A DNA stretch of 63,300 nt from an uncultured Candidatus Saccharibacteria bacterium (GTDB lineage Bacteria > Patescibacteriota > Saccharimonadia > Saccharimonadales > Saccharimonadaceae). Position numbers and translations under genes: made by a program. The stretch lies in assembly GCA_964292495.1 (NCBI GenBank), contig CAXYVX010000001.1, positions 1 through 63,300 of the forward strand, written 5' to 3'. Every line of letters begins with the position of its first letter. The stretch's first letter is position 1. The notes beneath the pieces are model-generated. The model was not told the DNA's origin, did no database searches, and worked only from the letters and a program-made list of their open reading frames with translations. Shown here in pieces: positions 464-20,394 of this stretch.

Positions 464-483
464 TAAAATGTTGTAAAAAAACG

Positions 484-511
484 TTGACTTATATCATGCT
501 CGTGCTAAAAT
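484..511 (+). promoter_or_regulatory. sigma70-type promoter for the 533 gene
   Basis: TTGACT (484-489), 16-nt spacer, TGc-TAAAAT (503-511). AAGGAGGA RBS lies downstream. Confidence 0.55.
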
Positions 512-532
512 AAATGTAAGGAGGAAAACAAA

Positions 533-1222: not shown

Positions 1223-1237
1223 AAATGGGAGAAAAAA

Positions 1238-1504: not shown

Positions 1505-1510
1505 GGAGCA

Positions 1511-2905: not shown

Positions 2906-2908
2906 TTC

Positions 2909-4573: not shown

Positions 4574-4606
4574 ATTTTGATTAAAATGGCGGTTTCTGCC
4601 GAAATT

Positions 4607-4615
4607 TGATAAAAT
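4607..4615 (+). promoter_or_regulatory. extended -10 (TGaTAAAAT) 6 nt before the ftsH ATG (leaderless)
   Basis: TGATAAAAT at 4607-4615, then AGAGAT, then ATG at 4622. No SD. Confidence 0.55.
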
Positions 4616-4621
4616 AGAGAT

Positions 4622-6502
4622 ATGAATCCAAGAGGGAAAAAACCAGCGGGCGGATCGCCTGCGAACCTGTCGCCGAAGGGGCGCTGGGTGAGAAATATCT
4701 CGTTTTATGCAGTTGTGATTTTTATTGCAGTTTTAGTATTTGCGGCGGTCAAAACTGGATCGGGTCTGAAAAATGTCCCGTTTAGCGAATTGATTGGCCA
4801 AGTTAATGACGGAAAAGTCGCGAAAATTGTTGAAAGCGGGCAGGATCTTGAAATAACTTTGAAAGACCAGAAAAACGCAACGGAATCGAGCATGATTCCG
4901 AACGGCGCGAGCGCTTCCCAGCAAGGACTTGACATTACGAAGGTTGATTATAAAGTTGTGGCCGCTGATAATACGGCTGGAATGATCTGGAATATTGCTG
5001 GAATTGTAGTGCCAACATTGGTCATTATTGGCTTGTTTGTTTGGATGATGAAAAGCGCGGGAAATCAGGGAAACCAATCAATGGCGTTTGGGAGAAGCAA
5101 GGCGAAACTTTATGGAAAAGACAAAAAACAACAAAAATTCGCGGAAATCGCTGGCAACGCAGAGGCAAAACAGGACCTTGAAGAAGTTGTTGATTTCTTG
5201 AAGCATCCGAAAAAATTCATTTCACTTGGAGCAAAAATTCCGCGAGGGGTTTTGATGGTTGGTCCTCCGGGAACCGGAAAAACCATGTTGGCGCGCGCCG
5301 TTGCAGGGGAAGCTGATGTGCCATTTTTCTCGATTTCTGGTTCAGAATTTGTGGAAATGTTCGTTGGTGTTGGTGCGAGCCGTGTTCGCGATTTGTTTGA
5401 AAAGGCGAAAAAGAACTCGCCCGCAATTATTTTCATTGATGAAATTGACGCTGTTGGACGACGCCGAGGATCCGGAATGGGTGGTGGACACGACGAGCGA
5501 GAACAGACATTGAACCAGATTTTGGTTGAAATGGACGGTTTTGACAAAGACCAAACAGTGATCGTTTTGGCGGCGACAAACCGCGTGGATGTCCTTGACC
5601 CAGCATTGCTCCGACCAGGACGTTTTGACAGACGAGTAAACATTTCTCTCCCAGAAAGAAAAGATCGCGAAGCTATTTTGAAAGTTCACGCAAAAGGGAA
5701 ACCGGTTTCAAAAGATGTTGATCTTGATGCACTTGCTGCCAAAACAGCTGGAATGGCTGGTGCCGACCTCGCGAATGTTTTGAACGAAGCTGCGATTAGG
5801 GCTGCTCGCCAAAATGAAAAGGAAATCACGAACGATGACATCACTGACGCTTTTGAAAAAGTTTCAATTGGTCCGGAGCGCAAAAATAAAGCTATGAATG
5901 ATCGCGACAAAGAACTAACTGCTTTTCATGAGGGCGGCCACGCGCTCGTTGCGCAGGTTTTGCCAGACAGTGATGATGTCCATAAAGTCACAATTATTCC
6001 TCGCGGCGGCACCGGTGGCGTGACTTGGACCTTGCCTTCTGAAGATCGTCCATATACGTCAATTGTTGAGTTCAAAGATATTTTGGCTCGTGCTCTCGGT
6101 GGGCGAATCGCGGAAGAAGTTGTGTTTGGCCGAGATCACATTACAACTGGAGCTGGATCTGATTTGCGGAACGCGACTTCAATTGCTCGCGACATGATCA
6201 TTGAACAGGGAATGGGAACGAAATTACGCGACCAAGTTTTCCATGAAGATGAGGGCGGATTGATGATGGATCGCATTGCTCGCGAAAAACCATATAGCGA
6301 AAAAACCGCAGAAGAAATTGACAAAGAAGTGAATGAGTTGATTGAAGAAGCGGCGAATCGTGCAAGGACCGTGATCACTCAAAATCGAAAAATGTTGGAT
6401 AAAATCAAAGATGAACTTCTTGAAAAAGAAACATTGGACGCAGGCCAAGTGAAAGAAATTTTCACTGGAGCGGTCCTGCCTGATTCGGCAAAACTATATT
6501 AA
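4622..6502 (+). CDS. ftsH: ATP-dependent zinc metalloprotease FtsH
   Basis: Walker A GPPGTGKT, Walker [13 protein letters not shown] region, and zinc motif HEGGHA. Confidence 0.97.
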
Positions 6503-6520
6503 ATTTTGTTGGAACATAAA

Positions 6521-6557
6521 AAACCTGCTCGGAGAAATCTGAGTAGGTTTACTTTTT
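6521..6557 (+). terminator. rho-independent terminator of ftsH
   Basis: 10-bp stem AAACCTGCTC/GAGTAGGTTT (one G-U), 10-nt loop, then ACTTTTT. Confidence 0.7.
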
Positions 6558-6647
6558 ATCGAGCATATTCTTAAATGGACGTGATAAAAGGGATTTTAAT
6601 AAAATTGGGGGAGATGATATGAGCAATCTAACAAAACAAGTCATTAA

Positions 6648-8055
6648 CGTTCACGTTCTGGGGTGGGTCAAGCACCGCCGAGCGTGCCAAACGCGCCAAA
6701 CACTGGCTTCATTGGCGGACTTGCTGATTTCGCTCAAACAAATTTCTTAACCATCATCTTACTTACACTTGGTATCACCGCAATCATCCTAGCAATCATT
6801 TTCTTCATCAAACACAAGAAGAAGGGCAGCGGCAATAAACTCTCACCAAGCTTCAAAACATCAAAGTTTTCCTTCAAAAACAAGCTCAGCGACAGAATCT
6901 CCAAACCGAAAACTAAATTCGCCGCCATATTCTCATCTTTCACAACCGCAATTTTTGCGGCTATTTTCATTCCTACATTTTTAGCGAATGCAGCCACTCT
7001 GCCACACACGGACATTACCTCAAGTGGCTCAAACGTGAATATCACACTTGTCAAAGGTGAATCTGGCACAAAAACCACTGTCGCGAAAAGCCCAGTAAAT
7101 ATTACTAGCAACATCAACACTGAACTAACTGCAAAGCTGAGTTTAGACACCACTGAAACCAGCCCAGAAATCATCGCGAACTTCACCGCATACACTGGAA
7201 GCGTCTCAGCACCAGCGCAACAAACTGCCAACACGCTCGGTTTCGCGATTCCTAACACAGAACAGTACTTAGTTGCCAACGAATTCGCCCCAGGCTATTC
7301 TCAAACTGAAAACAGCACCACCATCCCAAGCGAAACCTTCGCTGGAATTGATGTAAATGGCGCCCAAACACCTTTCAAAATCATCCCAGTGGACACCATC
7401 ACTAATGGCACATATTTAAACATCGCCACAGATTTGTTCTTCGCAATTACCGCCGATGACAGCTTGCCGGTAGGCGACTACAAGGCGGTTGTGAACATTA
7501 AAGCCGCTGACACCTCACAAGCAACTGTAAAAGTAAACTATAACACCACCAGCTCAACCAACCAAGATGTAATCGCGACATTAACTTCCAGCGAGCCACT
7601 TCAAACACCAGCTGGCTGGACAGAGGTTTCTGGTAGTGATGGCACTCAGTTTACAAAAGCATTCAGCGACAATATCACTGAAAACATCACGGTCAAAGAT
7701 CTAGCAGGCAATGAAACAGATGTTCAAATAGACATCACAAATATTGACAAAACTCCGCCAGTCATCACTATAAATGGCGCGATATCACTAAACCATGAAG
7801 CCAAAACATCTCACACTGACCTGGGCGCAGATGCTATAGATGCGGTAGATCGAGCAGTTTCTGTCAGTACATCTGGCGCAGTCAACGACCAAGTCAAAGG
7901 TCAATACACCATCACTTACACCGCCACCGACGCAGCTGGCAACCAAGCCACCGCCACCCGAACAGTAAATGTGGTAGACACAACCGCGCCAGTTCTCACA
8001 GTTTCACCATCCAGACTTGACATTGTTCAGGGCACGACAATCGCGGATTTGAATG
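6648..8055 (+). pseudogene. chimeric, 3'-truncated surface-protein ORF: orphan PNTG sorting signal + signal peptide + Ig-like (DUF5011-type) domains
   Basis: The frame opens at 6648. It reads APNTGF + TM + KHKKK (a C-terminal sorting signal), then a full signal peptide (..FIPTFLANA/AT), a T/S-rich region, and a DUF5011-like repeat (GQYTITYTATDAAGNQATATRTVNVVD). Composition switches at about 8055, and the last ~40 codons of track ORF 6663-8174 are island DNA. Confidence 0.55.
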
Positions 8056-8678
8056 CTTATATCGTATTCTTCCGCAAAATCAAAAGGCAGGCCATCGTAT
8101 TCTTTATTGTCTCGATTTCCTATAACGTCAAGAAGAGCTTGGAAAAGGAGCTTTTTGGAATTACTAATAGCTAGTAAAATATTAATGTCAGAATCCTTGG
8201 ATTTAAGTTCATCTTTTAATCTTCTATCTCCCTTGATACATTTATGTACTAAGGATTGAAATTTTTTAGAATCAATTTGAGTATAAATGCGAATGAAAAG
8301 AGGGTTAGTGATGCCCTTTAAAACCTTATCCTGATTTTTTTGCTATTTTTAATGCTTCTTCCTTGTAATCCTTGTTGATTTCTGGAAATTTTACTAATGA
8401 ATCTTCCTGCATAGCCTATTTTACTTGGATTATATACGTCTGTAGCCCCATTTGCTATCGCTTTTTGTGATTCTTCGGGGCTGTAGCTATATGCTCCATC
8501 TGCAAGAATAAAACTAAATAGCACCGCGGCTATTTTTTGACCCCCATCAAGCGGATCATTACTTATCAGTAACCTTACATGATTTATCGAAACTCTGTTT
8601 CCATGCGAGAGTAGCTGAGTATTTTATTATTTCAAAGTAGCTTCTAAAATTCCATCTAATTTCTTTGTTTTTATCCAT
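8056..8678 (-). pseudogene. decayed gene in three frame-disrupted pieces at the left island edge
   Basis: GAGG RBS + ATG at 8678 gives 39 aa then a stop. The frame then continues as ..DPLDGGQKIAAVLFSF..RIRF* (track ORF 8318-8524), shifts again to KGITNPLFIRIY..LPFDFAEEYDISI, and runs into the junction at about 8055. Confidence 0.5.
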
Positions 8679-8852
8679 GATCTCTACCTCTATTGCCTAC
8701 TATTATACCAAAGCTAGACAATGATTTCCATTGACTTTTTTGCAAAGTATGGTAATGTATAAGAGGTAGATTTAGCGTTTATTGCGTTTACTCCACAAGC
8801 CCTTGCTTGCGGAGACGTAAGCAAAATCTATGGCACAGAAAAGGCTATAACT

Positions 8853-9239
8853 ATGGGATTTTATCCGGTAAAAGGTATGGTTTTTAACACACAAGATATG
8901 TTCAAAATGCACGTTTTTGATCTCAATATGGAATTAAAAGAACACGCTGCACAAGATCTGATGAACGAAGCGTTTACTTTGAACGACGTATTTGCGGTAC
9001 GTTTCGCGATGGGGAACTCTACCAGCGACATCATTTTCTTTATGGGGGTTGATGCAGATGCAACTTTAATTGCGATTGATTGGTTTGCTCGAATATTGGA
9101 GAGAGATTCTGAATTAACAGAAGAAGATTACGCATTTTATAATCGAATTCTCAAATATATGAAAGCATTCCCGAAGGATGACAGCGAATTGTATGACTCC
9201 TTCGATGAGCGACGAGCTAAAGGACACGTCTACATTTGA
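8853..9239 (+). CDS. hypothetical acidic cytoplasmic protein (128 aa)
   Basis: Clean ORF with a TTGACT-N16-TAATGT promoter-like element at 8731-8758 and a terminator downstream. No recognised motifs. Confidence 0.6.
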   Translation: MGFYPVKGMVFNTQDMFKMHVFDLNMELKEHAAQDLMNEAFTLNDVFAVRFAMGNSTSDIIFFMGVDADATLIAIDWFARILERDSELTEEDYAFYNRILKYMKAFPKDDSELYDSFDERRAKGHVYI

Positions 9240-9267
9240 CGAGAATTGAACGTATCTAATTTCACAC

Positions 9268-9296
9268 ACTTCCGCCTAAAAAGCGGAAGTTTTTTC
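9268..9296 (+). terminator. rho-independent terminator
   Basis: Stem ACTTCCGC/GCGGAAGT, 7-nt loop, TTTTTT. Confidence 0.8.
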
Positions 9297-9427
9297 TTTG
9301 CTCAAAAAATTCATAAACTTCATCTTATTTTTCATGAACTTCACGTGAATGAATGAATTAAGATAAGAGTGTAGAGTTAATCAGGCCTGATGATTTTACA
9401 AAATACTTTATAAGGACGGTATTGCAG

Positions 9428-9610
9428 ATGACCAACAAAAAAGAAATCTCAAAAAATGAGCAAGACAGCACTCAAACACATAAAAAAGAAGCAAAAAAAC
9501 AAAAAGAGGTTAAAATCCTTGACTCTCCAGAGTTTGAGGAAACCTATAAATCTAAGTTTGTGGAGCGTATCATTAGTATTGATGAACTAAGAGAGAAGCT
9601 TGGTAAATAA
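9428..9610 (+). CDS. small K/E-rich hypothetical protein (60 aa)
   Basis: ATG at 9428 (the track starts at TTG 9422). Highly charged, predicted helical. Confidence 0.45.
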   Translation: MTNKKEISKNEQDSTQTHKKEAKKQKEVKILDSPEFEETYKSKFVERIISIDELREKLGK

Positions 9611-9760
9611 TTGAGCTCAGAACAGAGAAAGGCGATTGAAATGAAGATTAGAGCACCTGTGAGCTTGCTCGCTTTATCACGGCAATGTTTTTATGAAGAA
9701 TTAAACCAATTTTGCAGCTTGTATGAACTTTAAGAATCCAATGAAACGGAGAGAACAGAA

Positions 9761-10192
9761 ATGAAAATCTTAAGATTCAATAAAAATAGTTTGCCATCGG
9801 GCGATGATAAAGCAATTGTCCGTATGGAGGCGATGACACCAGAAGAACAGATGAGACCGTCTGATTACCGTATACTGAGCGAATTTATGACGATGAAGCG
9901 AGTGAATGCGAGCTTTTTGAAACATTTTAAGGACGGTGAAATTGATGTTAATAATGAAGATATCCGGGATAATTTCATTGAACTTCTGGCTGAAAAAGTG
10001 CTGGTGGATATTGAACGTCAAAAATCGGAACATGAAGCTCAGATTGAAACTCTTGCGCAGCTGAGCGAGGCACATAAAAAACAATTTACAGATCATTTGG
10101 AAAAAGTAAAAACTAATTTAGCGGAACAAGAATCTATTGTCAGGTTGCTCAAAGAAAAACAGGAGGACTTCCATGTTGCACAAGAAAAATGA
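9761..10192 (+). CDS. hypothetical coiled-coil protein (143 aa)
   Basis: GGAGAGAA RBS 6 nt upstream. The C-terminal half has heptad-like E/K/Q-rich sequence. Confidence 0.6.
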   Translation: MKILRFNKNSLPSGDDKAIVRMEAMTPEEQMRPSDYRILSEFMTMKRVNASFLKHFKDGEIDVNNEDIRDNFIELLAEKVLVDIERQKSEHEAQIETLAQLSEAHKKQFTDHLEKVKTNLAEQESIVRLLKEKQEDFHVAQEK

Positions 10193-11048
10193 ACTCTATT
10201 ATTTAGAACAAGGTAGCCTTGTTTTCACTCTGAATTTACGGCTTAAGAAGCTGGAAATGAGTTGGAGAGCTATGCTTAGGCAATTTTTCGTTAACCCGCT
10301 TATACTCGGTTTAAATCTGGTGTTCATGGTGGTTGATGCGCTCAATTTCTGGAATCTTTATCATGCGGTGGCTAACGATAATATTTGGCTGGAAGCAGGT
10401 TTGGTTGTATTCTCTGTGATTTTGTTAGACTTTACAGGATTAATCTTGGGGCATGCATTAAAGAAGAAAAAACAAGGATATAAAGTAGAAGTTTTGCCCT
10501 TGATGATGGGATGTTTGGCTTTCGTTATTGCAATGTTTATCAATTTCACTTATCGATTTGTCTTTGCGAAAAAACTATTTCCACCAACGCTCTATACGAC
10601 TTACGTAAACAATCATCCACAGTTCCATGCACTTGATGCTTCGGGTTGGATAGCCTTGAATTATTCCTTGATTCCACTTGCTGTGCTATTTTTCACTTTC
10701 ATGCTGACTTATCTCTTTGCGAATCCGCTATTAGAAGAGTTGCGCCTTGAACGGGACAAATTGGAACTGATCAAAAGCGAGCGAAGTCAGTTTGAAGCAG
10801 TATTGAATTTTTATGCCAATGCGAGATATAAACAAAACCTGCAAGTTTATGATGATACGCAATACGCTTACGTGCGGGAATTTGTGAGGATACAAGCTGA
10901 AATATTCAGAAATGAGATTCGTGAAGAAATGAAACTAAAAATGAAGAGTCCGGAAAAAATTGGCTGGCTGTCGCGAAAGGTCATAGCCTTAAAAAACAAA
11001 ATTTTCGGCGAATCCAAGACCGAAAACAAAGAAAGTGTGAACCTATGA
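10173..11048 (+). CDS. 4-TM membrane protein with a ~95-aa C-terminal coiled coil
   Basis: AGGAGGA at 10161-10167, then ATG at 10173 (the track start 10137 is less likely). Four hydrophobic helices, then an ELRLERDKLELIKSERSQFEAV.. tail. Overlaps neighbours on both sides, as in an operon. Confidence 0.65.
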   Translation: MLHKKNELYYLEQGSLVFTLNLRLKKLEMSWRAMLRQFFVNPLILGLNLVFMVVDALNFWNLYHAVANDNIWLEAGLVVFSVILLDFTGLILGHALKKKKQGYKVEVLPLMMGCLAFVIAMFINFTYRFVFAKKLFPPTLYTTYVNNHPQFHALDASGWIALNYSLIPLAVLFFTFMLTYLFANPLLEELRLERDKLELIKSERSQFEAVLNFYANARYKQNLQVYDDTQYAYVREFVRIQAEIFRNEIREEMKLKMKSPEKIGWLSRKVIALKNKIFGESKTENKESVNL

Positions 11049-12268
11049 AAAATAAATTATTTATTGTTCTATCTCTTGTTCTGTGCTTGATTATTGTACT
11101 TGCGGGCTGCGAGAAAAAGTCAAAATCTAATGAGCGCACAGACGTGGTTTTATTGGTTGGAAATCATGGAAACAGCACTATACCGAGTCTTAATTTCCAA
11201 ACCTTCAAAGATGAAATGCAGGCTGCAATCAGCTCAGGAGGCACAGTTTCTGCGGTGCTTGATGATGGTAACCCGTTCACTCAAACATTCAACGATGGAC
11301 AATCTTATACTGCCGAGCTGGAACAATATAAAAACGATCCGAATCAGCAAAAAATGTTAGTGGAGAATATCGTGGATGAAATCTTGAAAAGTGCAGGGAA
11401 TATGAAAGCAAAAAGTCCTGAAGTTGATATGTTGATGTCACTTAGAAAGAGTGCTGAGATACTTAAATCACAATCAAAAAGTTCACAAAAAGTTATTTTG
11501 GTGGACGACACGGGGCTTTCAACGACTGGTGTATTGAATTTCAGAAACAACTTATTGTCGCTGAACCCAGAAAAAATTGTAGAGGAACTAAAAGCAAAAC
11601 AGGACATCCCGGATCTTTCGGGGATTACAGTGAAGTGGATACAAGAGGCGGTCGTCAGCCCACAACAAGCTCTGTCGCAAAAAGATAACAATCGGTTGAT
11701 TGCAATTTGGCGGATGATTATTGAAGCGGGCGGTGGAAAATTAGAAGTTGAATTATCCACTCAAACTGGGAATGTTCGTGAGAAGTTCAAAACTTTGCCC
11801 AATGTTTCATCTGTTGATGTTGGGGCAGACACGCCGATCAATTATGACCCGAAAGCTGAGATATCTTTTGTACAGCCCTTGGTGTTGAATGACAAGCAAC
11901 TGAACTTTCAAGCAGATTCAGCGGCCTATATTTCAGGGAAATCCGCGCTGCTACTGCTTGAACCAATTGCTAAATATCTGAAACTGCATCAGAACTTCAA
12001 GCTCCTGCTCGTCGGGACAACTGCTGGAGACACTGGTCAGGTAGATGAAAATCAGGCACAAGCTTTATCGCTGGCGAGAGCGAACGCAGTTAAAAATTCC
12101 TTGGTTAAGCTCGGAACCAAGCCACAAAACATTGCGACAGTGGGTTGTGGCATCCGTTCACCTTGGCATATTTCTGGGCTTGGTTTGACGGATATAGCAG
12201 CGGCCAAAAACCGAACTGTGGTTATGATTGATGCCAGTTCAGGAGTTGCTAAAAATATCACAAAATAA
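11045..12268 (+). CDS. lipoprotein with a vWA-like N-domain and a C-terminal OmpA/MotB-type peptidoglycan-binding domain
   Basis: Lipobox LVLCLIIVLAGC. vWA-like strands VVLLVGNHGNS / KVILVDDTGLSTTG. OmpA_C-like FQADSAAY..LLLVGTTAGDTG..NQAQALSLARANAVKNSLVKLG..NRTVVMI. Confidence 0.7.
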   Translation: MKNKLFIVLSLVLCLIIVLAGCEKKSKSNERTDVVLLVGNHGNSTIPSLNFQTFKDEMQAAISSGGTVSAVLDDGNPFTQTFNDGQSYTAELEQYKNDPNQQKMLVENIVDEILKSAGNMKAKSPEVDMLMSLRKSAEILKSQSKSSQKVILVDDTGLSTTGVLNFRNNLLSLNPEKIVEELKAKQDIPDLSGITVKWIQEAVVSPQQALSQKDNNRLIAIWRMIIEAGGGKLEVELSTQTGNVREKFKTLPNVSSVDVGADTPINYDPKAEISFVQPLVLNDKQLNFQADSAAYISGKSALLLLEPIAKYLKLHQNFKLLLVGTTAGDTGQVDENQAQALSLARANAVKNSLVKLGTKPQNIATVGCGIRSPWHISGLGLTDIAAAKNRTVVMIDASSGVAKNITK

Positions 12269-12288
12269 AAAAGAAAGCAGGAAAGAAA

Positions 12289-12519
12289 ATGGAAACAGAA
12301 GAAACGATCGCTGAACGGCTTGAATATTTGGAAGACTGTATGGAAGAGGTTTGGGAACAAAGTGGGCGTCAAAAAGCTATTTTTCAGATGCTCGAAGAAC
12401 TCTGCGAAACGCTTGGTGTGCCGCTGAACAAATGGGCGGAGTTGGAGAAAAAAGAGATTGATGAGTTGCGCGAACAGCAGGAACAAAACGAACGGGAGCT
12501 GCGAGGAGAGGAGGAATAG
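12289..12519 (+). CDS. small acidic coiled-coil protein (76 aa)
   Basis: AGGAAAGAAA upstream. E-rich helical sequence. Last gene of the plus-strand operon. Confidence 0.5.
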   Translation: METEETIAERLEYLEDCMEEVWEQSGRQKAIFQMLEELCETLGVPLNKWAELEKKEIDELREQQEQNERELRGEEE

Positions 12520-12678
12520 ACGATGATTTCTAATGTTAGAGTGTATTTTCCGCCTTGAGAAGGTGAAAAAAAGAGCCGTTTTACGACTCTATGAAAGGTG
12601 CGAAAAGTACCACGGAGAACGTTGACGAGAGGTATTGTAGACTATGTCGGTCTTTTCCCTTATCATCTTAACAGCTTC

Positions 12679-12819
12679 CTAGGAGGTGCGCGGTCTGTTT
12701 TCCGATAACATTTCTTCTTTAACTAAATGTTTAATCTCCTGCTTCATTTGTTCAGGACAGATGTATAACTCGAACATCACACTAGTTATACGCTTAGGAT
12801 CTCTAGATGATTTTCTCAT
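12679..12819 (-). CDS. small basic protein, possibly ribbon-helix-helix-like (46 aa)
   Basis: TAGGAG RBS 7 nt before ATG 12819 (the track ORF starts at 12897). KRITSVMFELYICPEQMKQEIKHLV resembles a beta-strand + helix RHH layout. This is weak. Confidence 0.3.
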   Translation of the reverse strand: MRKSSRDPKRITSVMFELYICPEQMKQEIKHLVKEEMLSENRPRTS

Positions 12820-12908
12820 ATTAAAACTCCTATACTTTTTGGATTTCATTCGGACGAATGATACAAGAAAACAGCATTCGTTTTCAATACGAGACATTAT
12901 AGCACGGC

Positions 12909-13193
12909 TTAATATCGCGTATCTATATCCTTTATTGCCTTGGTTAGGAGTGCCTTTCGATTTTCCATGGGTAAATTGTGGCTAATCTGCTTTATGTCCC
13001 GAACAGCATTTTTTACAGCACGCTCTTTTCTAAAGTTATAAAAGGAACTTGCGATAGCGGCATTGTTTACAGAGATATAGTCGCTATCAATACTGGTTGT
13101 GCGATATAATTTTGCAGATTTAGGGGCAGTTCTCTTAGAATAAGTGCTATTGACAATGTTAGCGTGAAGATTGTTCTTTTGAGTATTTGACAT
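12909..13193 (-). CDS. small basic hypothetical protein (94 aa)
   Basis: GAAAGGAT RBS before ATG 13193 (MSNTQKNN..). The track start 13298 would overlap the upstream gene. Confidence 0.45.
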   Translation of the reverse strand: MSNTQKNNLHANIVNSTYSKRTAPKSAKLYRTTSIDSDYISVNNAAIASSFYNFRKERAVKNAVRDIKQISHNLPMENRKALLTKAIKDIDTRY

Positions 13194-13239
13194 GATATAT
13201 ATCCTTTCAAGTGTGACTTTTGGCTTAGTATAAATGAAA

Positions 13240-14421
13240 TTATCGAGTATAGCAATCCCGTAACATTTCAAGAAAATCAAATTCCTTGGACAACTCATCA
13301 GCGGGTTTCAGAATATCACTGCCTTTTTCCAGATTTCTTCTCATTTCCGATAAATAATAGCCGATAGCTTCAGAGTATCCCACCAGATTGGGTAAGACAA
13401 ATTTTGAAAGTATATGATCGCTAAAAATATAAGTGTCAATATAAACATTTAAGAAACCAAATAGAACATATTGCCCATTGCGAGAATTTCTATCGGTTAA
13501 TGGGATTAATATATTGCCTTCACTAATATAGCTTCTCAAATTTACATTAAGTTCATCGATGTAGTAAATTTGCTTCATTCTATCGGTGAAATGGTGTACT
13601 TTGTATTTTTCAACTTTACGGTGGCTTTGATCATCTACAAACGTATTATAGTAAAAAATCCCATAGCCTTGAGATCGAAAATTATCCGCCAAACTCTGCC
13701 CAAAATCAGTATTCTTACTGTATTTATCATCAGATAGTATCAGTTGCAAAGCAGACACTTCAAAATCCTCAGTCAATAACTGAAGCTTAATTGTGGGATG
13801 AACACCAGTAGAGTTATAGATACTTAAATCTATGTCATTAAATATAGATCCATAAAAGTGTTTACTTGTTATTGATGAGTTTTTTTGAAGAGTAAATAAC
13901 AGGTTATCTACCAAACTTTGAAATTCTTCGTTATTTTCTTGTGTGTTCTTTAACTTTATACGATTTTCATAAAGTATTTCTGGAATAACCAATGAGATGA
14001 CATTGATAAGTGTCATCCACCGACCAAACAATTTGGTCTGTTCCGCTAACTCTATGAAAGAATGTCTGGAATATTTTTGCAATGAATCTGGTGATTTTTG
14101 TGCGATTGACCTATAAAAATAATAACGATAAGTGATTATGCCTATAAATAGTGAAATAAAAAAAATAAAGGGATTCGCTATAATCACTAAATAAAGGTGC
14201 TCATTCCCATATGAGAAAAGCTTCCTTGAATAAAACCCGAGAGAAGGGCTAATATTGTCAGTTGTTAAAACAGGCGTAAACACTGATAGGGTAAATATAA
14301 CACTGTAAGTCCAACCGAATAGTTTGTTAGCCTTTGAGATTCCTATTTTATATGATTGAAACATCCATCTAAGCCATTGCCAAATATCAAGGATGTTTAA
14401 CCTTTTTACTGATTTATTCAA
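13240..14421 (-). CDS. membrane protein: 3 N-terminal TM helices + ~230-aa cytoplasmic domain, function unknown
   Basis: 393 aa. GGAGG RBS 7 nt before the TTG start at 14421. AT-rich codon usage like the rest of the island. Confidence 0.65.
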   Translation of the reverse strand: MNKSVKRLNILDIWQWLRWMFQSYKIGISKANKLFGWTYSVIFTLSVFTPVLTTDNISPSLGFYSRKLFSYGNEHLYLVIIANPFIFFISLFIGIITYRYYFYRSIAQKSPDSLQKYSRHSFIELAEQTKLFGRWMTLINVISLVIPEILYENRIKLKNTQENNEEFQSLVDNLLFTLQKNSSITSKHFYGSIFNDIDLSIYNSTGVHPTIKLQLLTEDFEVSALQLILSDDKYSKNTDFGQSLADNFRSQGYGIFYYNTFVDDQSHRKVEKYKVHHFTDRMKQIYYIDELNVNLRSYISEGNILIPLTDRNSRNGQYVLFGFLNVYIDTYIFSDHILSKFVLPNLVGYSEAIGYYLSEMRRNLEKGSDILKPADELSKEFDFLEMLRDCYTR

Positions 14422-14682
14422 TTATATACCTCCAAATAAACGCTCAATATATACGATTATCATATAAGCAAGCAAATAACAATCAATCACGGTTAAAACT
14501 AGTTTTTCCAATAAACATAGTAGAGCGGACAAGAAATCCGCTCTTTTTGTTATCTCTAGTATCTGAATTTAATATTGAGTATATATTGTTGTGATACACT
14601 ATGGTTGATAGAGATTCTCTGTCAATTCCTAAATAAATAAAGGAGGATGTATGATAATGGCTAAAGAAAAAATAAAGGAGAT

Positions 14683-14877
14683 GTGGAAATAAGAAGTTAT
14701 GTTAACAAAGATGGGTCAACGACCCATGAACATAAAATTGGCGACATAACTTATATTATTAGCTCAAATTTTATACCGACAGAACAAAATAAGAAAGCGC
14801 TTATCAAAACGATTCAGCATATAATGAAAAACGCTAAATTATCAGATGCGGAAAAATTTATGGATGACGATTTTTAA
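14683..14877 (+). CDS. TnpW-like small transposon-associated protein (start probably frameshifted)
   Basis: HKIGDITYIISSNF....KKALIKTIQHIMKN fits my recollection of the TnpW pattern IG.T.Y.V...F......K......I. A strong AGGAGGA RBS serves ATG 14651/14657, which is out of frame by one nt at an A-run. Confidence 0.4.
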   Translation: MEIRSYVNKDGSTTHEHKIGDITYIISSNFIPTEQNKKALIKTIQHIMKNAKLSDAEKFMDDDF

Positions 14878-14986
14878 CTGAATGTTAGTCTGGTGATTCA
14901 GACAAAATAGAAGTAAATAAAATAATTGAGAGTGTATTGCTACGTACCTTTAAGTATAATACTTTGAGAATTTGAATCATCAGATT

Positions 14987-15022
14987 AAAGACAAAGCTCA
15001 ATAATATAGCTTTGTCTTTTTT
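14987..15022 (+). terminator. rho-independent terminator at the right island edge
   Basis: 11-bp stem AAAGACAAAGC/GCTTTGTCTTT, 11-nt loop, T-run. Confidence 0.8.
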
Positions 15023-15070
15023 ATTCTTTTTCACCACACCCTCTTGCATTTCCATCCCGCCTATGATTAA

Positions 15071-15598
15071 ATTAACATCTCCGTGCAGGCTGGAGATATT
15101 GTGAAAGTAACGGAAAGTAATGGTGATAATACATTCCGAGGTTGGCGTGCATATGGCGACGACCCACTAGTCAAGGAACCGAAAACAGCGATAATATCTA
15201 TGCCTGAAATGAATAGGTTTACCACAGACACGGCGGGAACAACAGCAAAGGGCGACTTCTTCTACAGTTTTAATCACGCTGGCTCACTCACCTCGCTCCC
15301 AGCTGGATCATTTGACACCAGCAACATTACGACAGTAGGAAACAATTTCTTCGCAAACTTCAACCTCAACGGCGCCCTTACCTCTCTCCCAGCAGGGTCA
15401 TTCAATACCAGCAACATTACTTCGGTAGGAAACTATTTCTTTGATAATTTCAACTACAATGGTAAACTAATCCAGGGAAACAATTCAATAAGCATTAAGA
15501 ATATAACAAGTTCAGTAATGGCGTTTTATTACTGGACGGGCTCATCAACGACTCAATCCGTAGCACCGGGCGACTCCATGACCTACAACGGAGACTAA
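15071..15598 (+). pseudogene. 5'-truncated paralog of the 28317 LRR surface protein
   Basis: The frame opens at 15071 with no signal peptide. It aligns with residues ~80-330 of the 28317 protein (MPEMNRFTTDTAGTTAKGDFF.., GSLTSLPAGSFDTSNITTVGNNFF x2). Confidence 0.6.
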
Positions 15599-15608
15599 AA
15601 TAAATCAA

Positions 15609-15637
15609 ATTCTCCTCGCGAAATCGGGGAGAATTTT
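15609..15637. terminator. hairpin terminator between convergent genes
   Basis: 10-bp stem ATTCTCCTCG/CGGGGAGAAT (one G-U) around CGAAAT, then TTT. Confidence 0.6.
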
Positions 15638-15649
15638 ATATAAAAGACT

Positions 15650-17458
15650 CTATTTTTCGCGAATATTTAAGTGTCCGTAAAAGATTTTCTTCAAATATTT
15701 TAAGACCGGGTCAACTTCAGCTAGTTTGAACATTCGCGAAAACCCGATGTAAATCACGAACGACAACAACGAAATAACCGCGAATTTTGGCAGAACCATC
15801 ATCAGATTTTGATTCTCAAATTCAAGGTTTAGGAAAGTTGACATCGCGTATGTTGCAATACTCATTACCCCTGCCGCAATAAACATTTTCAAGACTCCGG
15901 ACCAAAATTCGCGATTGAAAATGCCGGTCATTCGCCTGTGGATGATGAACCACTGGCAGACAATTTCCATGACGGCCCACAAAACTTGCGCGATTGCGAG
16001 GGAAATTGCGCCAAGATTCAGCACAAAAACCATGAAAAAGTTTGCCGCGATTGAGATCGCGAAGGTGACCAGTGAGATTATCAGAGGTGTTTTTGTGTCT
16101 TGCTGTGCGTAAAAACTGCGCGCGGCAATTTGGTAGACTGAACGAATAAATATTGCGATCGTGAGAATCCCAAACAGCCCGGCGATGGTTGAGTTGCCGC
16201 CTTTTTGGATGATGCTGACGATATATCCTCGCGCGAAAAATGCGATTGTCGCGACCGGCAAGGAAAGCCAGATGATTACTCTGAGGATTGAGCGGAATTC
16301 CTTTTTGAACAAATCCGGGCGTCCTTGACCGATGCGTTCTGTCATCTGTGGGAAGGCTGCTGTGGAAATCGCCACGCCGATGAGGTTAATTGGCATGTTG
16401 TAAAGTGATCCGGCTTGCTGATATGCGCGGATTGTGCCGTCCGCCATTCGCGAAGCAAGGTTGGTGTCAATCATGCTGCTGAGATAGTCAAGCCCTTGAT
16501 CCGCCGAACGAGCAGGGAGCAGCGCGAGAACTTTGCGAAAACCGCGGTTTTTCCAGTAGATTTTGAATTCATAATCAAACCCGAGCCCAATCAGCCCAAG
16601 GCAAGAAACCAGAAGCTGCAAAACCGCGCCAAGAACCACGCCGAGCGCCACACCCATAATTCCGCCGGCGAAAATCTGGTGCCCGAAAATCGTGATTCCG
16701 TTTGTGAAGACGGTCGCGCCGATGATGATACCGATGTTGTAAATCATTGGTGCGAGCGCGAAGAAAACGAAGCGCCCGACAGCTTGCTGGATACTCGCAA
16801 TCACTGTCGCAACTGCGAAGAGGAACGGGTTGATTGCGATGATTCGCATCATTGATGTGGCGAGAGCTTGTCCGCTTTCGCTCATGCCTGGACCGACTAT
16901 GTATTTAACAAAAACCGGCGCGAAAATCATGATTAAAACAGACGCAATCAATGTCAAAAGCGCCAAAAAGTTCAAAGTTGAGCTGGACAATTGCCATGCG
17001 CTTTTTCGGTTTCCTTTCGCGAGACGATCATTGAAAACAGGGATAAATGAGACTGAAAGTGCGCCAGTAACCAAAATCATATACATAAAATCCGGGATTA
17101 TAAATGCGGCAGTGTACGCGTCAATGCCGATTTTATATGTGGTTAAATACATTCCGTTCAGCAATCTGTCGCGATAAATTCCGAGAACTGCCGACATCAT
17201 GGTCGATCCAGCCAAAAGCGCGGCTGCCATTTTGATTGAAATTTTCTGGTTTGCTTTTGCGAGAGTTGTAATAAGTTTGTTTTGCGCACGCTTCTTTTTC
17301 GCGATTTCAGCCTGATGAATTTCAAAAGCGTGGTGCTTTTCAAGCCGGATATTGCGATCTGTGTAGTCCGCCAAAAGATCTCCTGCTTCAGAATTGAGAA
17401 CTATATTTTTATTAGCATCGTTTTCTTGCTTGGGTGATTCGCTTTGATCGTCTTTCAT
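15650..17458 (-). CDS. murJ: lipid II flippase MurJ (MviN family) with an N-terminal extension
   Basis: 602 aa with about 14 TM. SAVLGIYRDRLL matches the MurJ N-terminal S.(V/L)LG..R motif. Polytopic MOP-superfamily layout. Confidence 0.8.
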   Translation of the reverse strand: MKDDQSESPKQENDANKNIVLNSEAGDLLADYTDRNIRLEKHHAFEIHQAEIAKKKRAQNKLITTLAKANQKISIKMAAALLAGSTMMSAVLGIYRDRLLNGMYLTTYKIGIDAYTAAFIIPDFMYMILVTGALSVSFIPVFNDRLAKGNRKSAWQLSSSTLNFLALLTLIASVLIMIFAPVFVKYIVGPGMSESGQALATSMMRIIAINPFLFAVATVIASIQQAVGRFVFFALAPMIYNIGIIIGATVFTNGITIFGHQIFAGGIMGVALGVVLGAVLQLLVSCLGLIGLGFDYEFKIYWKNRGFRKVLALLPARSADQGLDYLSSMIDTNLASRMADGTIRAYQQAGSLYNMPINLIGVAISTAAFPQMTERIGQGRPDLFKKEFRSILRVIIWLSLPVATIAFFARGYIVSIIQKGGNSTIAGLFGILTIAIFIRSVYQIAARSFYAQQDTKTPLIISLVTFAISIAANFFMVFVLNLGAISLAIAQVLWAVMEIVCQWFIIHRRMTGIFNREFWSGVLKMFIAAGVMSIATYAMSTFLNLEFENQNLMMVLPKFAVISLLSFVIYIGFSRMFKLAEVDPVLKYLKKIFYGHLNIREK

Positions 17459-17623
17459 TATGAATAGTTTAACATACTTTCGTAAAAACGTGTTTTTTGA
17501 AAACGTAAATTTCTCTCTGTAAATCGATTTGAGAAATTAAAAATTGGTTTTTCGCGAATTTTCGTTTTTATTTTTCACTAAAAAACTGTCTGAAATTTTA
17601 ATCTTTCAAAAATGGCTGGATAA

Positions 17624-17632
17624 TGTTAGAAT
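17624..17632 (+). promoter_or_regulatory. extended -10 TGtTAGAAT 6 nt before the lepA GTG (leaderless)
   Basis: TGTTAGAAT at 17624-17632, then ATACTG, then GTG at 17639. Confidence 0.5.
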
Positions 17633-17638
17633 ATACTG

Positions 17639-19579: not shown

Positions 19580-19605
19580 AAAATTCTTTGTTTTTGTTTC
19601 GCGAT

Positions 19606-20343
19606 TTATTTGAGTCGCAAAATAAACTGGTGGGTTTCGCCGCCTAGTTCGCGTTCGATGTCGTCGTGAAGTTTTTTGGCTGCTTTTTTTGCTTCGTCAT
19701 CGCTGTATTTTTTCGCGAATTTTTTGTCGGCAATGAGTTTTCGCGAAATTTCCGCAGCTTCTTTGAGGTCGTCGTTGATGACGAAACGGTAGTAATTTGA
19801 GCGTAAAGCAAAATCTAGTTCGGCTTCTGCGCTGATCATGCGATTGCGTTTTTCTTCTGAACTTTTGCTGTCATCGCGGCCGGACCAGCGTTTTTGCCAA
19901 ATCTCAAATGATGGCGGAATGATGAAAATTGAAACTAAATTTCGTGCAACGCGGTGATATTCCTCAACTCCTTGAACATCAACATCGCCCAACGCAATCT
20001 TTTTTTCCTCCGTAATTCGCGAAAGTTCGTCGGTTGTCGTCCCGTAAACTCGTCCATGGACAAGCTTTGCTTCAAAATATTTTTTGTTATTTAGATTTTC
20101 GCGAACTTTCTCATTATCAATAAAATGATATGAAACATCTTGAATTTCTCCCGGTCGCGGCGCGCGCGGAATTGTGGTGATGATGCGCGAGAAATTTTCT
20201 GTGTCTTTCAAAATTTCGCGAATGATTGAATCTTTTCCAGCCGCAGCAATCCCAACAATCAATGCAATCCGCATTTTTTCAACGATTTTTTTTGCGTCTT
20301 CCGGCGCTTCATAACTATCAACTTTTTCTCTCAAACTTTCCAT
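19606..20343 (-). CDS. gmk: guanylate kinase-like protein with a C-terminal tail
   Basis: P-loop GIAAAGKDS, and TTIPRAPRPGEIQDVSYHFID....F.......YFEAKLVHGRVYGTT matching the Gmk core. Confidence 0.65.
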   Translation of the reverse strand: MESLREKVDSYEAPEDAKKIVEKMRIALIVGIAAAGKDSIIREILKDTENFSRIITTIPRAPRPGEIQDVSYHFIDNEKVRENLNNKKYFEAKLVHGRVYGTTTDELSRITEEKKIALGDVDVQGVEEYHRVARNLVSIFIIPPSFEIWQKRWSGRDDSKSSEEKRNRMISAEAELDFALRSNYYRFVINDDLKEAAEISRKLIADKKFAKKYSDDEAKKAAKKLHDDIERELGGETHQFILRLK

Positions 20344-20349
20344 AGATAG

Positions 20350-20357
20350 ATTATACA
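20350..20357 (-). promoter_or_regulatory. TG-TATAAT 6 nt before the gmk-like ATG (leaderless)
   Basis: The minus strand reads TTCGCGAAAATC-TG-TATAAT-CTATCT-ATG. Confidence 0.5.
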
Positions 20358-20394
20358 GATTTTCGCGAAAAAAATGAAATGAAGCTGGAGGAAA

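What the first reader, a model, noticed from the sequence alone, without database searches (positions are those of the whole stretch)
8056..15070. AT-rich ~7-kb island replacing the 3' end of one surface-protein gene and the 5' end of another
**What the sequence shows.**
- At about 8055 the Ig-like surface-protein ORF (..TTIADLNAY) runs straight into AT-rich DNA.
- At about 15070 an LRR surface-protein paralog begins mid-protein with no signal peptide.
- Between these points there are 0 TTCGCGAA and only 2 TCGCGA (9004, 10971).
- Genes inside use GGAGG Shine-Dalgarno sites.
- The content is unrelated to the backbone: a TnpW-like protein, a decayed gene, and two operons of unknowns.
- I found no integrase, transposase, tRNA target or flanking direct repeats.

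**Interpretation (inference).** This could be a recently acquired island of low-GC (Firmicutes-like?) origin inserted along with a deletion. It could be a recombination cassette in a variable surface-protein locus. It could also be an assembly or binning chimera. If it is real, it is the best place in the window to look for an undescribed accessory system.
Basis: partly seen in the sequence, partly recalled or inferred. Interest (0 to 1): 0.7.

Follow-up and report, generated by a model that had tools for sequence, protein, structure and literature searches.

The report
Lactococcus DNA inside a Saccharibacteria gene
A 7-kb stretch of foreign DNA, most of it about 99% identical to the cargo of a mobile element found in Lactococcus lactis, has been spliced into one surface-protein gene of an ultrasmall Saccharibacteria (TM7) bacterium and has broken it; this is a real and very recent cross-phylum transfer, not an assembly error.

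Summary
The island is real, and its exact limits are 8064-15069 (7,006 bp).

**Empty site.** A same-species contig (L088, 98-99% identical flanks) has one intact Ig-like+LRR surface-protein gene between ftsH and murJ. In the window, 812 bp inside that gene are replaced by the island. The two "truncated genes" are therefore halves of one gene.

**Composition.** The backbone carries a highly iterated palindrome: TCGCGA at 22x and TTCGCGAA at about 150x expectation. The island has it only at chance level.

**Origin.**
- 8505-14436 matches Lactococcus lactis isolate genomes (97% overall, 99.2-99.7% from 8800 on). There it is cargo of a serine-recombinase integrative mobilizable element (IME).
- The window's allele nests within the diversity of the Lactococcus copies.
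- The last 0.63 kb (14436-15069) is a separate module. Its junction with the LRR part recurs in an independent assembly.

**Mechanism.** There is no recombinase, relaxase, att repeat or tRNA. The joins show microhomology (TATATC on the left, AA on the right). I read this as illegitimate recombination of a fragment.

**Cargo.**
- A decayed STAND-gene stub.
- An intact, unannotated envelope cassette: a coiled-coil protein, a 4-TM protein, and a vWA-like/OmpA-like lipoprotein.
- An ORFan membrane protein.

**Surprise.** The Lactococcus IME's mobilisation module carries the Saccharibacterium's TTCGCGAA signature, which hints at two-way exchange.

The parts
6663..8063 (+). Native 5' part of the interrupted surface-protein gene. 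It carries a TM or signal segment and Ig-like (Bact_surface_Ig-like/HYR) domains. In the window the ORF continues into island DNA and stops at 8174.
   Evidence: Pfam PF16403 E 2e-13. 91% identical to P0168 residues 1-344. Window 1-8063 matches L088 2966-11029 at 98.85%.
8058..8063 (.). Left junction microhomology TATATC. It is present in the recipient (L088) and in the donor-type NB-ARC gene (L086).
   Evidence: Three-way comparison of the sequences.
8064..15069 (.). The island: 7,006 bp that replace 812 bp (L088 11030-11841) of the gene.
   Evidence: blastn of the window against L088, junction alignments, composition.
8064..8678 (-). Decayed, truncated stub of an NB-ARC-type STAND NTPase gene. 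Only the region homologous to residues 1-206 of a 912-aa protein remains, split over three frames. It lies upstream of where the NTPase domain would be.
   Evidence: tblastn of the L081 912-aa protein gives 50-69% identity in three pieces. Translation shows the frameshifts. The NB-ARC domain lies at residues 251-411 of the intact homolog.
8853..9239 (+). Acidic 128-aa protein of unknown function, followed by a terminator-like hairpin at 9268-9290.
   Evidence: 100% identical to the L081 copy. No family hits. Terminator scan.
9428..9610 (+). Lys/Glu-rich 60-aa ORF (62 aa if read from the TTG at 9422).
   Evidence: 98% identical to the L081 copy.
9761..10192 (+). 143-aa predicted coiled-coil protein, first gene of the conserved cassette.
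   Evidence: 99% identical to the L081 copy. Proteins of the same size (145-152 aa) precede the cassette in L082, L089 and L091. Composition.
10173..11048 (+). 291-aa membrane protein with four predicted TM helices and a charged, coiled-coil-like C-terminal half. GGAGG lies 6 nt upstream.
   Evidence: Hydropathy and upstream sequence. 23% identity, E 4e-13, to the 318-aa neighbour of the lipoprotein homolog in L082.
11045..12268 (+). 407-aa lipoprotein (lipobox LAGC). It has an N-terminal vWA-like alpha/beta domain with a degenerate MIDAS motif, and a C-terminal OmpA-like peptidoglycan-binding domain.
   Evidence: Pfam OmpA E 4.9e-9, 36.9 bits against a cut-off of 27.2. 98 homologs found. AlphaFold pLDDT 90.6 and 90.2. 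Foldseek matches Pal/OprF/MotB C-domains and VWA/integrin I domains at E 3e-5 to 1e-3.
12289..12519 (+). Very acidic 76-aa protein (net charge -16), last gene of the cassette.
   Evidence: 99% identical to the L081 copy. Net charge. A 90-aa ORF occupies the same position in L091.
12909..13193 (-). Basic 94-aa protein downstream of the 393-aa gene. The open frame extends to 13298 (129 aa).
   Evidence: Gene call of 94 aa at the homologous place in L086 and L175. ORF list.
13240..14421 (-). 393-aa ORFan membrane protein. GGAGG precedes its TTG start.
   Evidence: 100% identical to a Lactococcus lactis hypothetical protein, P0167. An exhaustive HMMER search of 1.84 billion representatives gave only itself and two weak partial hits. 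Hydropathy and ribosome-binding site.
8505..14436 (.). Block A: DNA shared with the cargo region of the Lactococcus lactis integrative mobilizable element.
   Evidence: 97.15% over 5,937 bp to L086 (GCA_031931265.1). Identity per 200 bp is 0.95-1.00 from 8800 to 14400. 30 differences in 3,764 nt to L081, and 5 in 1,873 nt to L086.
14436..15069 (.). Block B: a separate 0.63-kb module, absent from the Lactococcus element. It holds a bidirectional terminator-like hairpin at 14522-14544, the 64-aa ORF, and a second hairpin followed by a T-run at 14987-15025.
   Evidence: 98.4% to L173 and 99.0% to L174. Boundaries. Terminator scan. Sequence read directly.
14683..14877 (+).
   Evidence: The exact protein is also found on L173 and L174. 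46% identity over 37 aa to the small ORF upstream of the serine recombinase in L081. No TnpW model hit.
15070..15071 (.). Right junction microhomology AA.
   Evidence: Donor-type L173 reads ...GATTAAA|GGAAC. Recipient-type L088 reads ...GGTACAA|TTAAC. The window reads ...GATTAAATTAAC.
15070..15598 (+). Native 3' part of the same surface-protein gene (BspA-like LRR repeats). It now has no signal peptide or native start.
   Evidence: 97% identical to P0168 residues 619-789. Window 15070-20636 matches L088 11842-17408 at 98.08%. Paralog at 28317-29753.

Best explanation
**What it is.** The window comes from a Saccharibacterium (TM7, near the Nanoperiomorbaceae). One roughly 913-codon surface-protein gene lies between the convergent ftsH and murJ genes. 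It has an Ig-like N-terminal part and a BspA-type LRR C-terminal part.

**What happened.** 812 bp inside that gene were replaced by 7,006 bp of foreign DNA (8064-15069).
- About 6.4 kb (block A) is a fragment of the cargo region of an integrative mobilizable element (IME) that resides in Lactococcus lactis chromosomes.
- The last 0.63 kb (block B) is a separate small module. It also occurs in other contigs that carry the same TTCGCGAA signature.

**How it got in (inferred).** The fragment carries none of the element's own machinery: no serine recombinase, relaxase, coupling protein or att ends. It is cut inside a donor gene, and it is joined to the recipient through 6-bp and 2-bp microhomologies. 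I therefore infer entry by illegitimate (microhomology-mediated) recombination of a linear fragment. The most plausible route is natural-competence DNA uptake, which Saccharibacteria are known to possess.

**Consequences.** The event is very recent: 15 window-private substitutions in 3.8 kb and no acquisition of the host's iterated palindrome. It inactivated the surface-protein gene and left an immobile island.

**What the cargo does (inferred).** The intact cargo is a cassette of a coiled-coil protein, a 4-TM protein, a vWA-like/OmpA-like lipoprotein and a small acidic protein, plus an ORFan membrane protein with a small basic partner. My best guess is that it is envelope-anchored defence or exclusion cargo of the donor element. 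Whether it is expressed or useful in the Saccharibacterium is unknown.
For: **Shown**
- Taxonomy and the conserved ftsH-murJ neighbourhood.
- The empty site in sister contig L088, with 98.85% and 98.08% identical flanks and one intact gene.
- The exact junctions and their microhomologies.
- Motif and GC contrast between island and backbone.
- 5.9 kb at 97% identity, and 99.2-99.7% identity over 8800-14436, to Lactococcus lactis isolate genomes and metagenome contigs. The window allele nests within Lactococcus allele diversity.
- The complete element in Lactococcus carries Type III R-M, an NB-ARC gene, the cassette, a T4SS coupling protein, a Replic_Relax relaxase and a large serine recombinase. 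It sits next to ecfA, or next to a GT2 gene.
- The window has no recombinase, relaxase, tRNA or repeats.
- The right junction appears in an independent assembly, L174.
- The cassette genes are intact. The 15 window-private changes are 8 synonymous, 6 nonsynonymous and 1 intergenic, with no frameshift.
- The lipoprotein's architecture.
- The cassette sits in defence or mobile-element contexts.

**From the literature**
- Saccharibacteria are naturally competent (PMC10633639).
- Patescibacteria carry few relaxases, and the mobile-element genes they do carry are read as acquired from outside (PMC12102498).
Against: - The left junction has not been seen in a second assembly. All 14 other contigs that carry the 128-aa protein are Lactococcus-type.
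- The left 0.45 kb (8064-8504) is only about 55-70% identical to the sampled Lactococcus copies, so the true donor variant is unsampled.
- Block B is not part of the sampled Lactococcus element. In L174 its left neighbour is a motif-rich tatD gene rather than the 393-aa gene. The island may therefore have been built in two steps, or L174 may be a repeat-induced misjoin.
- Natural transformation as the entry route is an inference. Conjugative delivery is equally allowed by the data.
- The defence or exclusion role rests only on gene neighbourhood. PADLOC has no model for any cassette protein.
Confidence: 0.82

Rival explanations
1. A whole IME (or a tandem of elements) first integrated here through its serine recombinase. 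Later deletions removed the recombinase, the mobilisation module, the element ends and 812 bp of the host gene.
For: - The gene order in the island (NB-ARC stub, cassette, variable slot, small 'TnpW-position' ORF) follows the order in the Lactococcus element. The right junction lies where the recombinase gene would be expected.
- Accretion and decay of IMEs is well documented in streptococci (PMC5357655).
- L174 shows block B joined to the LRR part without block A, which hints at more than one event.
Against: - It needs at least three events (an integration and two deletions) within a time that left only about 0.4% private divergence.
- There is no trace of att sequence, recombinase or the motif-rich module anywhere in the 63-kb window.
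- The left end falls inside a donor gene at a microhomology.
Confidence: 0.1
2. Assembly or binning chimera: Lactococcus reads were mis-joined into a Saccharibacterial contig.
For: - The island is about 99% identical to Lactococcus DNA.
- The left junction has no independent confirmation.
Against: - The contig leaves and re-enters the same gene 812 bp apart, between ftsH and murJ, which are also neighbours in the closest relatives (L088, L002) and in most other Saccharibacteria loci retrieved.
- The only shared sequence at the joins is 6 bp and 2 bp, far below any assembler k-mer.
- The right junction is present at 99% identity in a contig from a different sample and assembler.
- The island is not identical to any sampled Lactococcus copy.
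Confidence: 0.04
3. The opposite direction of transfer: block A is native Saccharibacterial accessory DNA that moved into Lactococcus.
For: - The Lactococcus element's other half carries the Saccharibacterium's TTCGCGAA signature, so some DNA does seem to have gone that way.
- Block B occurs on a TTCGCGAA-bearing contig (L173) and next to a motif-rich tatD gene on L174.
Against: - Block A has the palindrome only at chance level. The host's own DNA has it every 240 bp.
- In the window, block A is truncated, has a decayed stub and is absent from the sister strain.
- In Lactococcus, block A is part of a complete element seen in 14 contigs and at two integration sites.
Confidence: 0.04

Closest known systems
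Integrative mobilizable elements of Firmicutes with a MobC/Replic_Relax relaxase, a VirD4-type coupling protein and a large serine recombinase (streptococcal IMEs, PMC5357655; L. lactis integrative elements, PMC10983677)
   Same: The donor of block A is such an element. The island keeps its cargo gene order and is about 99% identical to it.
   Different: The island has no recombinase, relaxase, coupling protein or att ends. It is cut inside a donor gene and sits in a different phylum. It is a dead fragment, not an IME.
Foreign-DNA capture by illegitimate or homology-facilitated illegitimate recombination during natural transformation (described for Acinetobacter and Streptococcus pneumoniae; cited from my own knowledge)
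   Same: Insertion with a simultaneous deletion, short microhomologies at the joins (6 bp and 2 bp), no target-site duplication, and a recipient lineage known to be competent (PMC10633639).
   Different: No homologous anchor segment was found on either side, so both joins would be illegitimate. The uptake route has not been demonstrated.
Tn4451/Tn5397-type serine-recombinase transposons with a small TnpW ORF (cited from my own knowledge)
   Same: In the Lactococcus element a small ORF sits immediately upstream of the large serine recombinase. The window's 64-aa ORF is 46% identical to it over 37 aa.
   Different: Neither protein hits a TnpW model, and no recombinase follows in the window.
OmpA/Pal/MotB-type peptidoglycan anchors and envelope-anchored defence modules such as Zorya ZorAB (ZorAB cited from my own knowledge)
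   Same: The cassette pairs a multi-TM protein that has a coiled-coil tail with a protein that carries an OmpA-like peptidoglycan-binding domain. It sits in defence islands.
   Different: The peptidoglycan-binding protein is a lipoprotein with a vWA-like domain, not a TM stator subunit. No PADLOC model, ZorA/ZorB included, matches it. No effector gene can be recognised.
HIP1 (GCGATCGC), the highly iterated palindrome of cyanobacteria (cited from my own knowledge)
   Same: The backbone's TTCGCGAA is an 8-bp palindrome. It is about 150x over-represented, occurs about every 460 bp of backbone and lies inside coding sequence. It works as a marker of long residence.
   Different: The sequence and the phylum are different. 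A full-text search for TTCGCGAA found no description of it as a genomic motif. Its cause is unknown.

Membership tests
Integrative mobilizable / conjugative element (functional) | Own integrase or recombinase gene | tested here: not met
   No Pfam or NCBIfam recombinase or transposase in any island ORF. tblastn of the L081 serine recombinase finds nothing in the 63-kb window.
Integrative mobilizable / conjugative element (functional) | Relaxase and/or coupling protein | tested here: not met
   tblastn of the L081 Replic_Relax protein and T4SS coupling protein finds nothing in the window.
Integrative mobilizable / conjugative element (functional) | Defined ends: att or direct repeats, or a tRNA or conserved-gene 3' end as target | tested here: not met
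   No flanking direct or inverted repeats. No tRNA. The target is the interior of a variable surface-protein gene, and the left end lies inside a donor gene.
Fragment of the Lactococcus lactis IME cargo region | Collinear, near-identical DNA | tested here: met
   Window 8505-14436 matches L086 at 97.15% over 5,937 bp. Identity is 99.2% (to L081) over 8800-12563 and 99.7% (to L086) over 12564-14436.
TnpW family | Match to the curated family model | tested here: not met
   Pfam at E up to 10 and NCBIfam at E up to 0.1 list no TnpW family for 14683-14877 or for its Lactococcus counterpart.
OmpA-like peptidoglycan-binding domain (PF00691) | Profile match above the curated threshold, and the fold | tested here: met
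   36.9 bits against a cut-off of 27.2. PDB profile hits to Pal, MotY and YiaD at E 1e-14 to 1e-12. Foldseek target-normalised TM-scores of 0.7-0.8 to Pal and OprF.
von Willebrand factor A domain | Rossmann-like VWA fold with a DxSxS MIDAS motif | tested here: inconclusive
   The best Foldseek hits are VWA and integrin I domains (E 3e-5 to 1e-3, TM 0.4-0.5). No Pfam VWA hit. The family consensus at the first strand is GNTANS (VGNHGNS in the window) rather than DxSxS.
NB-ARC / STAND NTPase (Avs-like defence protein) | P-loop NTPase (NB-ARC) domain present | tested here: not met
   The stub covers only residues 1-206 of the homolog, and the NB-ARC domain lies at 251-411. The stub is frameshifted.
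Known anti-phage defence systems (PADLOC-DB v2) | Any island protein matches a system model | tested here: not met
   Only chance-level hits, E 0.005 or weaker.
Phage or plasmid DNA | Nucleotide similarity to catalogued phages or plasmids; PHROG families | tested here: not met
   megablast finds no match in PLSDB or INPHARED. PHROGs matches only the OmpA domain region. Two viral-contig scans were empty.

The most novel reading that the evidence does not exclude
The Lactococcus IME and this Saccharibacterium exchange DNA in both directions.
- The IME's mobilisation and recombination module covers the T4SS coupling protein, the Replic_Relax relaxase, an MT-A70 methylase and the serine recombinase. 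It carries the Saccharibacterium's species-specific (T)TTCGCGAA(A) iterated palindrome at 4-6 per kb, and it matches the backbone's tetranucleotide profile (r = 0.87). It would then have evolved inside this Saccharibacterial lineage and now be functioning in Lactococcus.
- In the other direction, Lactococcus-type cargo has come back into the Saccharibacterium.

This would imply an intimate, possibly epibiont-host, association of a Saccharibacterium with a Firmicute, and a mobile element that crosses the CPR/Firmicute boundary. In addition, the vWA/OmpA-lipoprotein cassette would be a new envelope-anchored defence or exclusion system.
Probability: 0.3. Interest if true: 0.8.

Novelty: new member of a known kind. 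Interest (0 to 1): 0.6.

Why it matters
- **A clean case of recent cross-phylum transfer into a CPR bacterium.** An empty site, exact breakpoints and an identified donor element are all in hand. That is rare for uncultivated Patescibacteria, where horizontal transfer is usually inferred from phylogeny.
- **A physical link between organisms.** It ties this Saccharibacterium to Lactococcus-like Firmicutes. All cultivated Saccharibacteria so far grow on Actinobacteria (PMC10633639).
- **A built-in clock.** The host's iterated palindrome separates resident DNA from newly arrived DNA.
- **An unannotated cassette.** It flags a family of about 100 members of an envelope cassette found in defence islands and mobile elements.
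- **Possible transfer in the other direction.** It exposes a Lactococcus mobile element whose transfer module looks Saccharibacterial.

Tried and rejected
- Exact-protein look-ups of the window's own MurJ, lipoprotein and LRR171 found nothing, so the source genome is not in the collection.
- megablast of the island against plasmids and phages found no match.
- Viral-contig scans with the 64-aa ORF and with the lipoprotein alignment found nothing.
- A metagenome scan with the IME coupling protein was meant to find a Saccharibacterial home for the motif-rich module. It returned only 22-41% identical relatives, mostly on contigs of GC 0.6-0.7 without the motif. The origin of the module therefore rests on composition alone.
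- A look-up of the 128-aa protein was meant to find a second copy of the left junction. All the places it returned are Lactococcus-type.
- An apparent similarity between L173's 126-aa ORF and window 14307-14534 came mostly from the shared block B. There is no 393-aa homolog in L173.
- Literature searches for TTCGCGAA and for the accession numbers of the key assemblies were empty.
- The promoter and terminator scan was not above shuffled expectation, so I did not use it for operon claims beyond individual hairpins.
- A whole-protein Foldseek search saw only the OmpA domain. A separate model of residues 28-275 was needed to see the vWA-like fold.
- An exhaustive HMMER search for the 393-aa protein showed it is an ORFan, so I attempted no functional inference.

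Full report
**1. Observation**

The window averages 44% GC.

A far sharper contrast is an iterated palindrome.
- Outside the island, TCGCGA occurs 231 times where base composition predicts 10.4.
- Outside the island, TTCGCGAA occurs 123 times where 0.8 is predicted.
- The extended consensus is (a/t)TTTCGCGAAA(a/t).
- Inside 8064-15069 there are two TCGCGA and no TTCGCGAA. That is what composition alone predicts (0.8) and about 14-fold below the backbone rate (28.7 expected, P about 1e-10).

- The Ig-like ORF (6663-8174) does run into the AT-rich DNA, and the LRR ORF (15083-15598) does begin mid-protein relative to its paralog at 28317-29753.
- No integrase, transposase, tRNA, Rfam family or flanking repeat is present.
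- The 'TnpW-like' label is not backed by any curated model.

**2. The host and the empty site**

MurJ, FtsH and their neighbours are 55-77% identical to those of Saccharibacteria. The nearest relatives are a Nanoperiomorbaceae MAG.

Across the phylum ftsH and murJ are neighbours. In the closest representative (L002) they are convergent and 17 bp apart.

A homolog search with the native part of the Ig-like ORF found P0168, which is 91% identical and 789 aa long. It lies on a 25-kb contig, L088. L088 is the same species:
- Window 1-8063 aligns to L088 2966-11029 at 98.85%.
- Window 15070-20636 aligns to L088 11842-17408 at 98.08%.
- L088 carries the same palindrome, 39 TTCGCGAA in 17.4 kb.

In L088 a single gene lies between ftsH and murJ.
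- The window's Ig503 equals P0168 residues 1-344, and LRR171 equals residues 619-789.
- With its upstream GTG start the gene is about 913 codons long.
- The island therefore replaces 812 bp inside one gene.

**3. The junctions**

- **Left:** native sequence runs through ...GCTTATATC (8063). The donor-type NB-ARC gene reads ...CCTATATCGTATTC. TATATC is shared by both.
- **Right:** donor-type L173 reads ...GATTAAA|GGAAC, recipient L088 reads ...GGTACAA|TTAAC, and the window reads ...GATTAAATTAAC. The shared sequence is AA.
- No target-site duplication or terminal repeats exist.

**4. The donor**

The OmpA-domain lipoprotein (11045-12268) has a 99% identical copy on an ENA contig, L081. The 393-aa protein is 100% identical to a Lactococcus lactis hypothetical protein.

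Identity to the Lactococcus copies:
- Window 8505-14436 aligns to L. lactis isolate assemblies GCA_031931265.1 and GCA_031931465.1 at 97.15% over 5,937 bp.
- Identity is 95-100% per 200 bp from 8800 onwards and essentially 100% over 13200-14400.
- Over 8800-12563 the window differs from L081 by 30 nt. The Lactococcus copies differ from one another by 35-70 nt, so the window's allele lies within Lactococcus diversity. Only 15 substitutions are private to the window.

In Lactococcus this DNA is the cargo of an integrated element. Its gene order is:
1. Type III R-M
2. a 912-aa NB-ARC protein
3. the 128/60/143/291/407/76-aa gene set
4. a variable slot, holding either the 393+94-aa pair or other small genes
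5. a T4SS coupling protein
6. a Replic_Relax relaxase
7. DUF5049
8. an MT-A70 methylase
9. a small ORF
10. a 550-aa serine recombinase

The element abuts ecfA1, or in another assembly a GT2 gene. This is a Firmicute IME of a described kind (PMC5357655).

The window holds only the middle of the element.
- The NB-ARC gene is reduced to a frameshifted stub that covers residues 1-206.
- That stub is much more diverged (about 55-70% nt) than the rest. The actual donor variant is therefore unsampled.

**5. Block B**

Homology to Lactococcus stops abruptly at 14436.

The remaining 634 bp contain the 64-aa ORF flanked by terminator-like hairpins. They recur at 98-99% identity on two small contigs.
- **L173** places the module between a UvrD-like helicase fragment and an HTH/HsdM pair. 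The contig is AT-rich but holds three TTCGCGAA.
- **L174** comes from a different sample. It contains exactly the window's block B to LRR junction. Its left neighbour, however, is a palindrome-rich tatD 3' end.

L174 is independent evidence that the right junction exists in nature.

It also shows one of two things. Either the island was assembled in more than one step, or block B is a dispersed repeat that caused a misjoin in that 1x-coverage contig. I cannot tell which.

**6. Chimera?**

A mis-assembly would have to enter Lactococcus DNA at a 6-bp match and return to the same Saccharibacterial gene 812 bp further on at a 2-bp match. It would also have to coincide with an independently assembled junction. 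I consider that excluded for practical purposes. Read-level confirmation of the left junction is still missing.

**7. Mechanism**

*Shown:* an insertion-deletion with microhomologies, no mobility genes, donor genes cut, very low private divergence, and no amelioration.

*Inferred:* illegitimate recombination of a linear fragment. Natural transformation is a plausible entry route because Saccharibacteria are naturally competent (PMC10633639). Conjugative delivery from a Lactococcus donor is the alternative.

The main rival is site-specific integration of a whole element followed by deletions. It needs more events in a very short time and has left no trace.

**8. Cargo**

None of the island proteins matches Pfam, NCBIfam, PHROGs or PADLOC, except for the OmpA-like domain.

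The lipoprotein family has 98 detectable members, all about 400 aa and all unnamed.
- AlphaFold models are confident (pLDDT 90).
- They show an N-terminal vWA-like alpha/beta domain without a canonical MIDAS motif and a C-terminal Pal/MotB-type peptidoglycan-binding domain.
- In the four independent contexts examined it is preceded by an approximately 145-aa protein and an approximately 280-320-aa protein. The window's version of the latter has four predicted TM helices and is 23% identical to the L082 one.

In all four contexts the cassette lies beside defence or conjugation genes:
- Type III R-M and NB-ARC in the IME
- TIR-TPR, TIR-STAND, E1-E2/JAB and DolB-like genes in L089
- PP2C, VWA and MkoA-like genes in L091
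- McrBC, coupling-protein-like ATPases and a nuclease in L082

My best guess is an envelope-anchored defence or exclusion module. This is neighbourhood inference only.

The 393-aa membrane protein is an ORFan. In the window all these genes are intact. The private changes are 8 synonymous, 6 nonsynonymous and 1 intergenic.

**9. The unexpected reciprocal signal**

In every Lactococcus copy, the IME's mobilisation and recombinase module (about 6.6 kb, GC 0.45-0.52) carries TTCGCGAA at 4.3 per kb and TCGCGA at about 6 per kb.
- The flank preferences are the same as in the window's backbone.
- The adjacent cargo and the Lactococcus chromosome have none.
- With the motif masked, the module's tetranucleotide profile correlates at 0.87 with the Saccharibacterial backbone, against 0.60 with the Lactococcus flanks.
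- Among about 170 other loci fetched, only L088 (the same species) shows this TTCGCGAA density.

This suggests the module spent a long time in this Saccharibacterial lineage, or in an unknown genome with the same bias, before reaching Lactococcus. A metagenome scan found no closer copy to test this.

**10. Verdict**

- It is a new instance of a known kind of event: a fragment of a Firmicute IME captured by illegitimate recombination.
- The recipient, a CPR bacterium, is unusual, and the evidence is unusually clean.
- Interest is moderate to high, mainly for the Saccharibacteria-Lactococcus link and the reciprocal signature.

Noticed in passing
window 1-8063 and 15070-57813 (whole backbone); also L088: A highly iterated palindrome. 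TCGCGA is 22x and TTCGCGAA about 150x over expectation, roughly one TTCGCGAA per 460 bp of backbone. It lies inside coding sequence, with extended consensus (a/t)TTTCGCGAAA(a/t). It resembles cyanobacterial HIP1. A full-text search found no description of it.
   Followed up: partly
L081 13500-20100; L086 2700-9600; L092 10000-16700: The mobilisation and serine-recombinase module of the Lactococcus lactis IME carries the same TTCGCGAA motif with the same flanks, at 4-6 per kb. Its tetranucleotide profile correlates at r = 0.87 with the Saccharibacterial backbone. It is embedded in motif-free, AT-rich Lactococcus DNA.
   Followed up: partly
window 57814-63300: 5.5 kb with no TCGCGA at all, although GC is backbone-like at 0.44 (a gap this long has P about 4e-8). 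It holds a truncated helicase-like ORF (58945-60003), ClpB (60207-62390) and Hsp20 (62527-62952). It may be a second foreign segment.
   Followed up: no
P0175, P0177 (ENA contigs of 1.3-2.6 kb): Other alleles of the same surface-protein gene (87-93% identical) fuse the Ig-like part directly to LRR repeats at a different breakpoint. The gene is repeatedly rearranged in the population.
   Followed up: no
window 6663-6850; L088 about 9650-9830: The surface-protein ORF begins with a motif that looks like a C-terminal sorting signal: PNAPNTGF, then a hydrophobic helix, then KHKKK. A second, signal-peptide-like segment follows. The paralog at 28317-29753 ends in APNTGFRK.
   Followed up: no
window 4622-17458; L001-L030: In most Saccharibacteria ftsH and murJ are adjacent and co-directional. 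In the window, L088, L001 and L002 they are convergent. The interval between them is a variable slot: 17 bp in L002, 1.7 kb of small secreted proteins in L001, and a surface-protein gene here.
   Followed up: partly
L002, L003, L005, L028 (homologs of window 17639-19579): In several relatives the GTPase gene next to murJ (LepA-type domains in L088) is split after about codon 327 by inserts of roughly 0.5 to 6.6 kb.
   Followed up: no
L173 1-3291: An AT-rich contig (GC 0.34) with three TTCGCGAA sites. It carries a UvrD-like helicase fragment, block B, an HTH ORF and an HsdM N-terminus. It looks like an older defence island of a bacterium with the same motif bias.
   Followed up: partly
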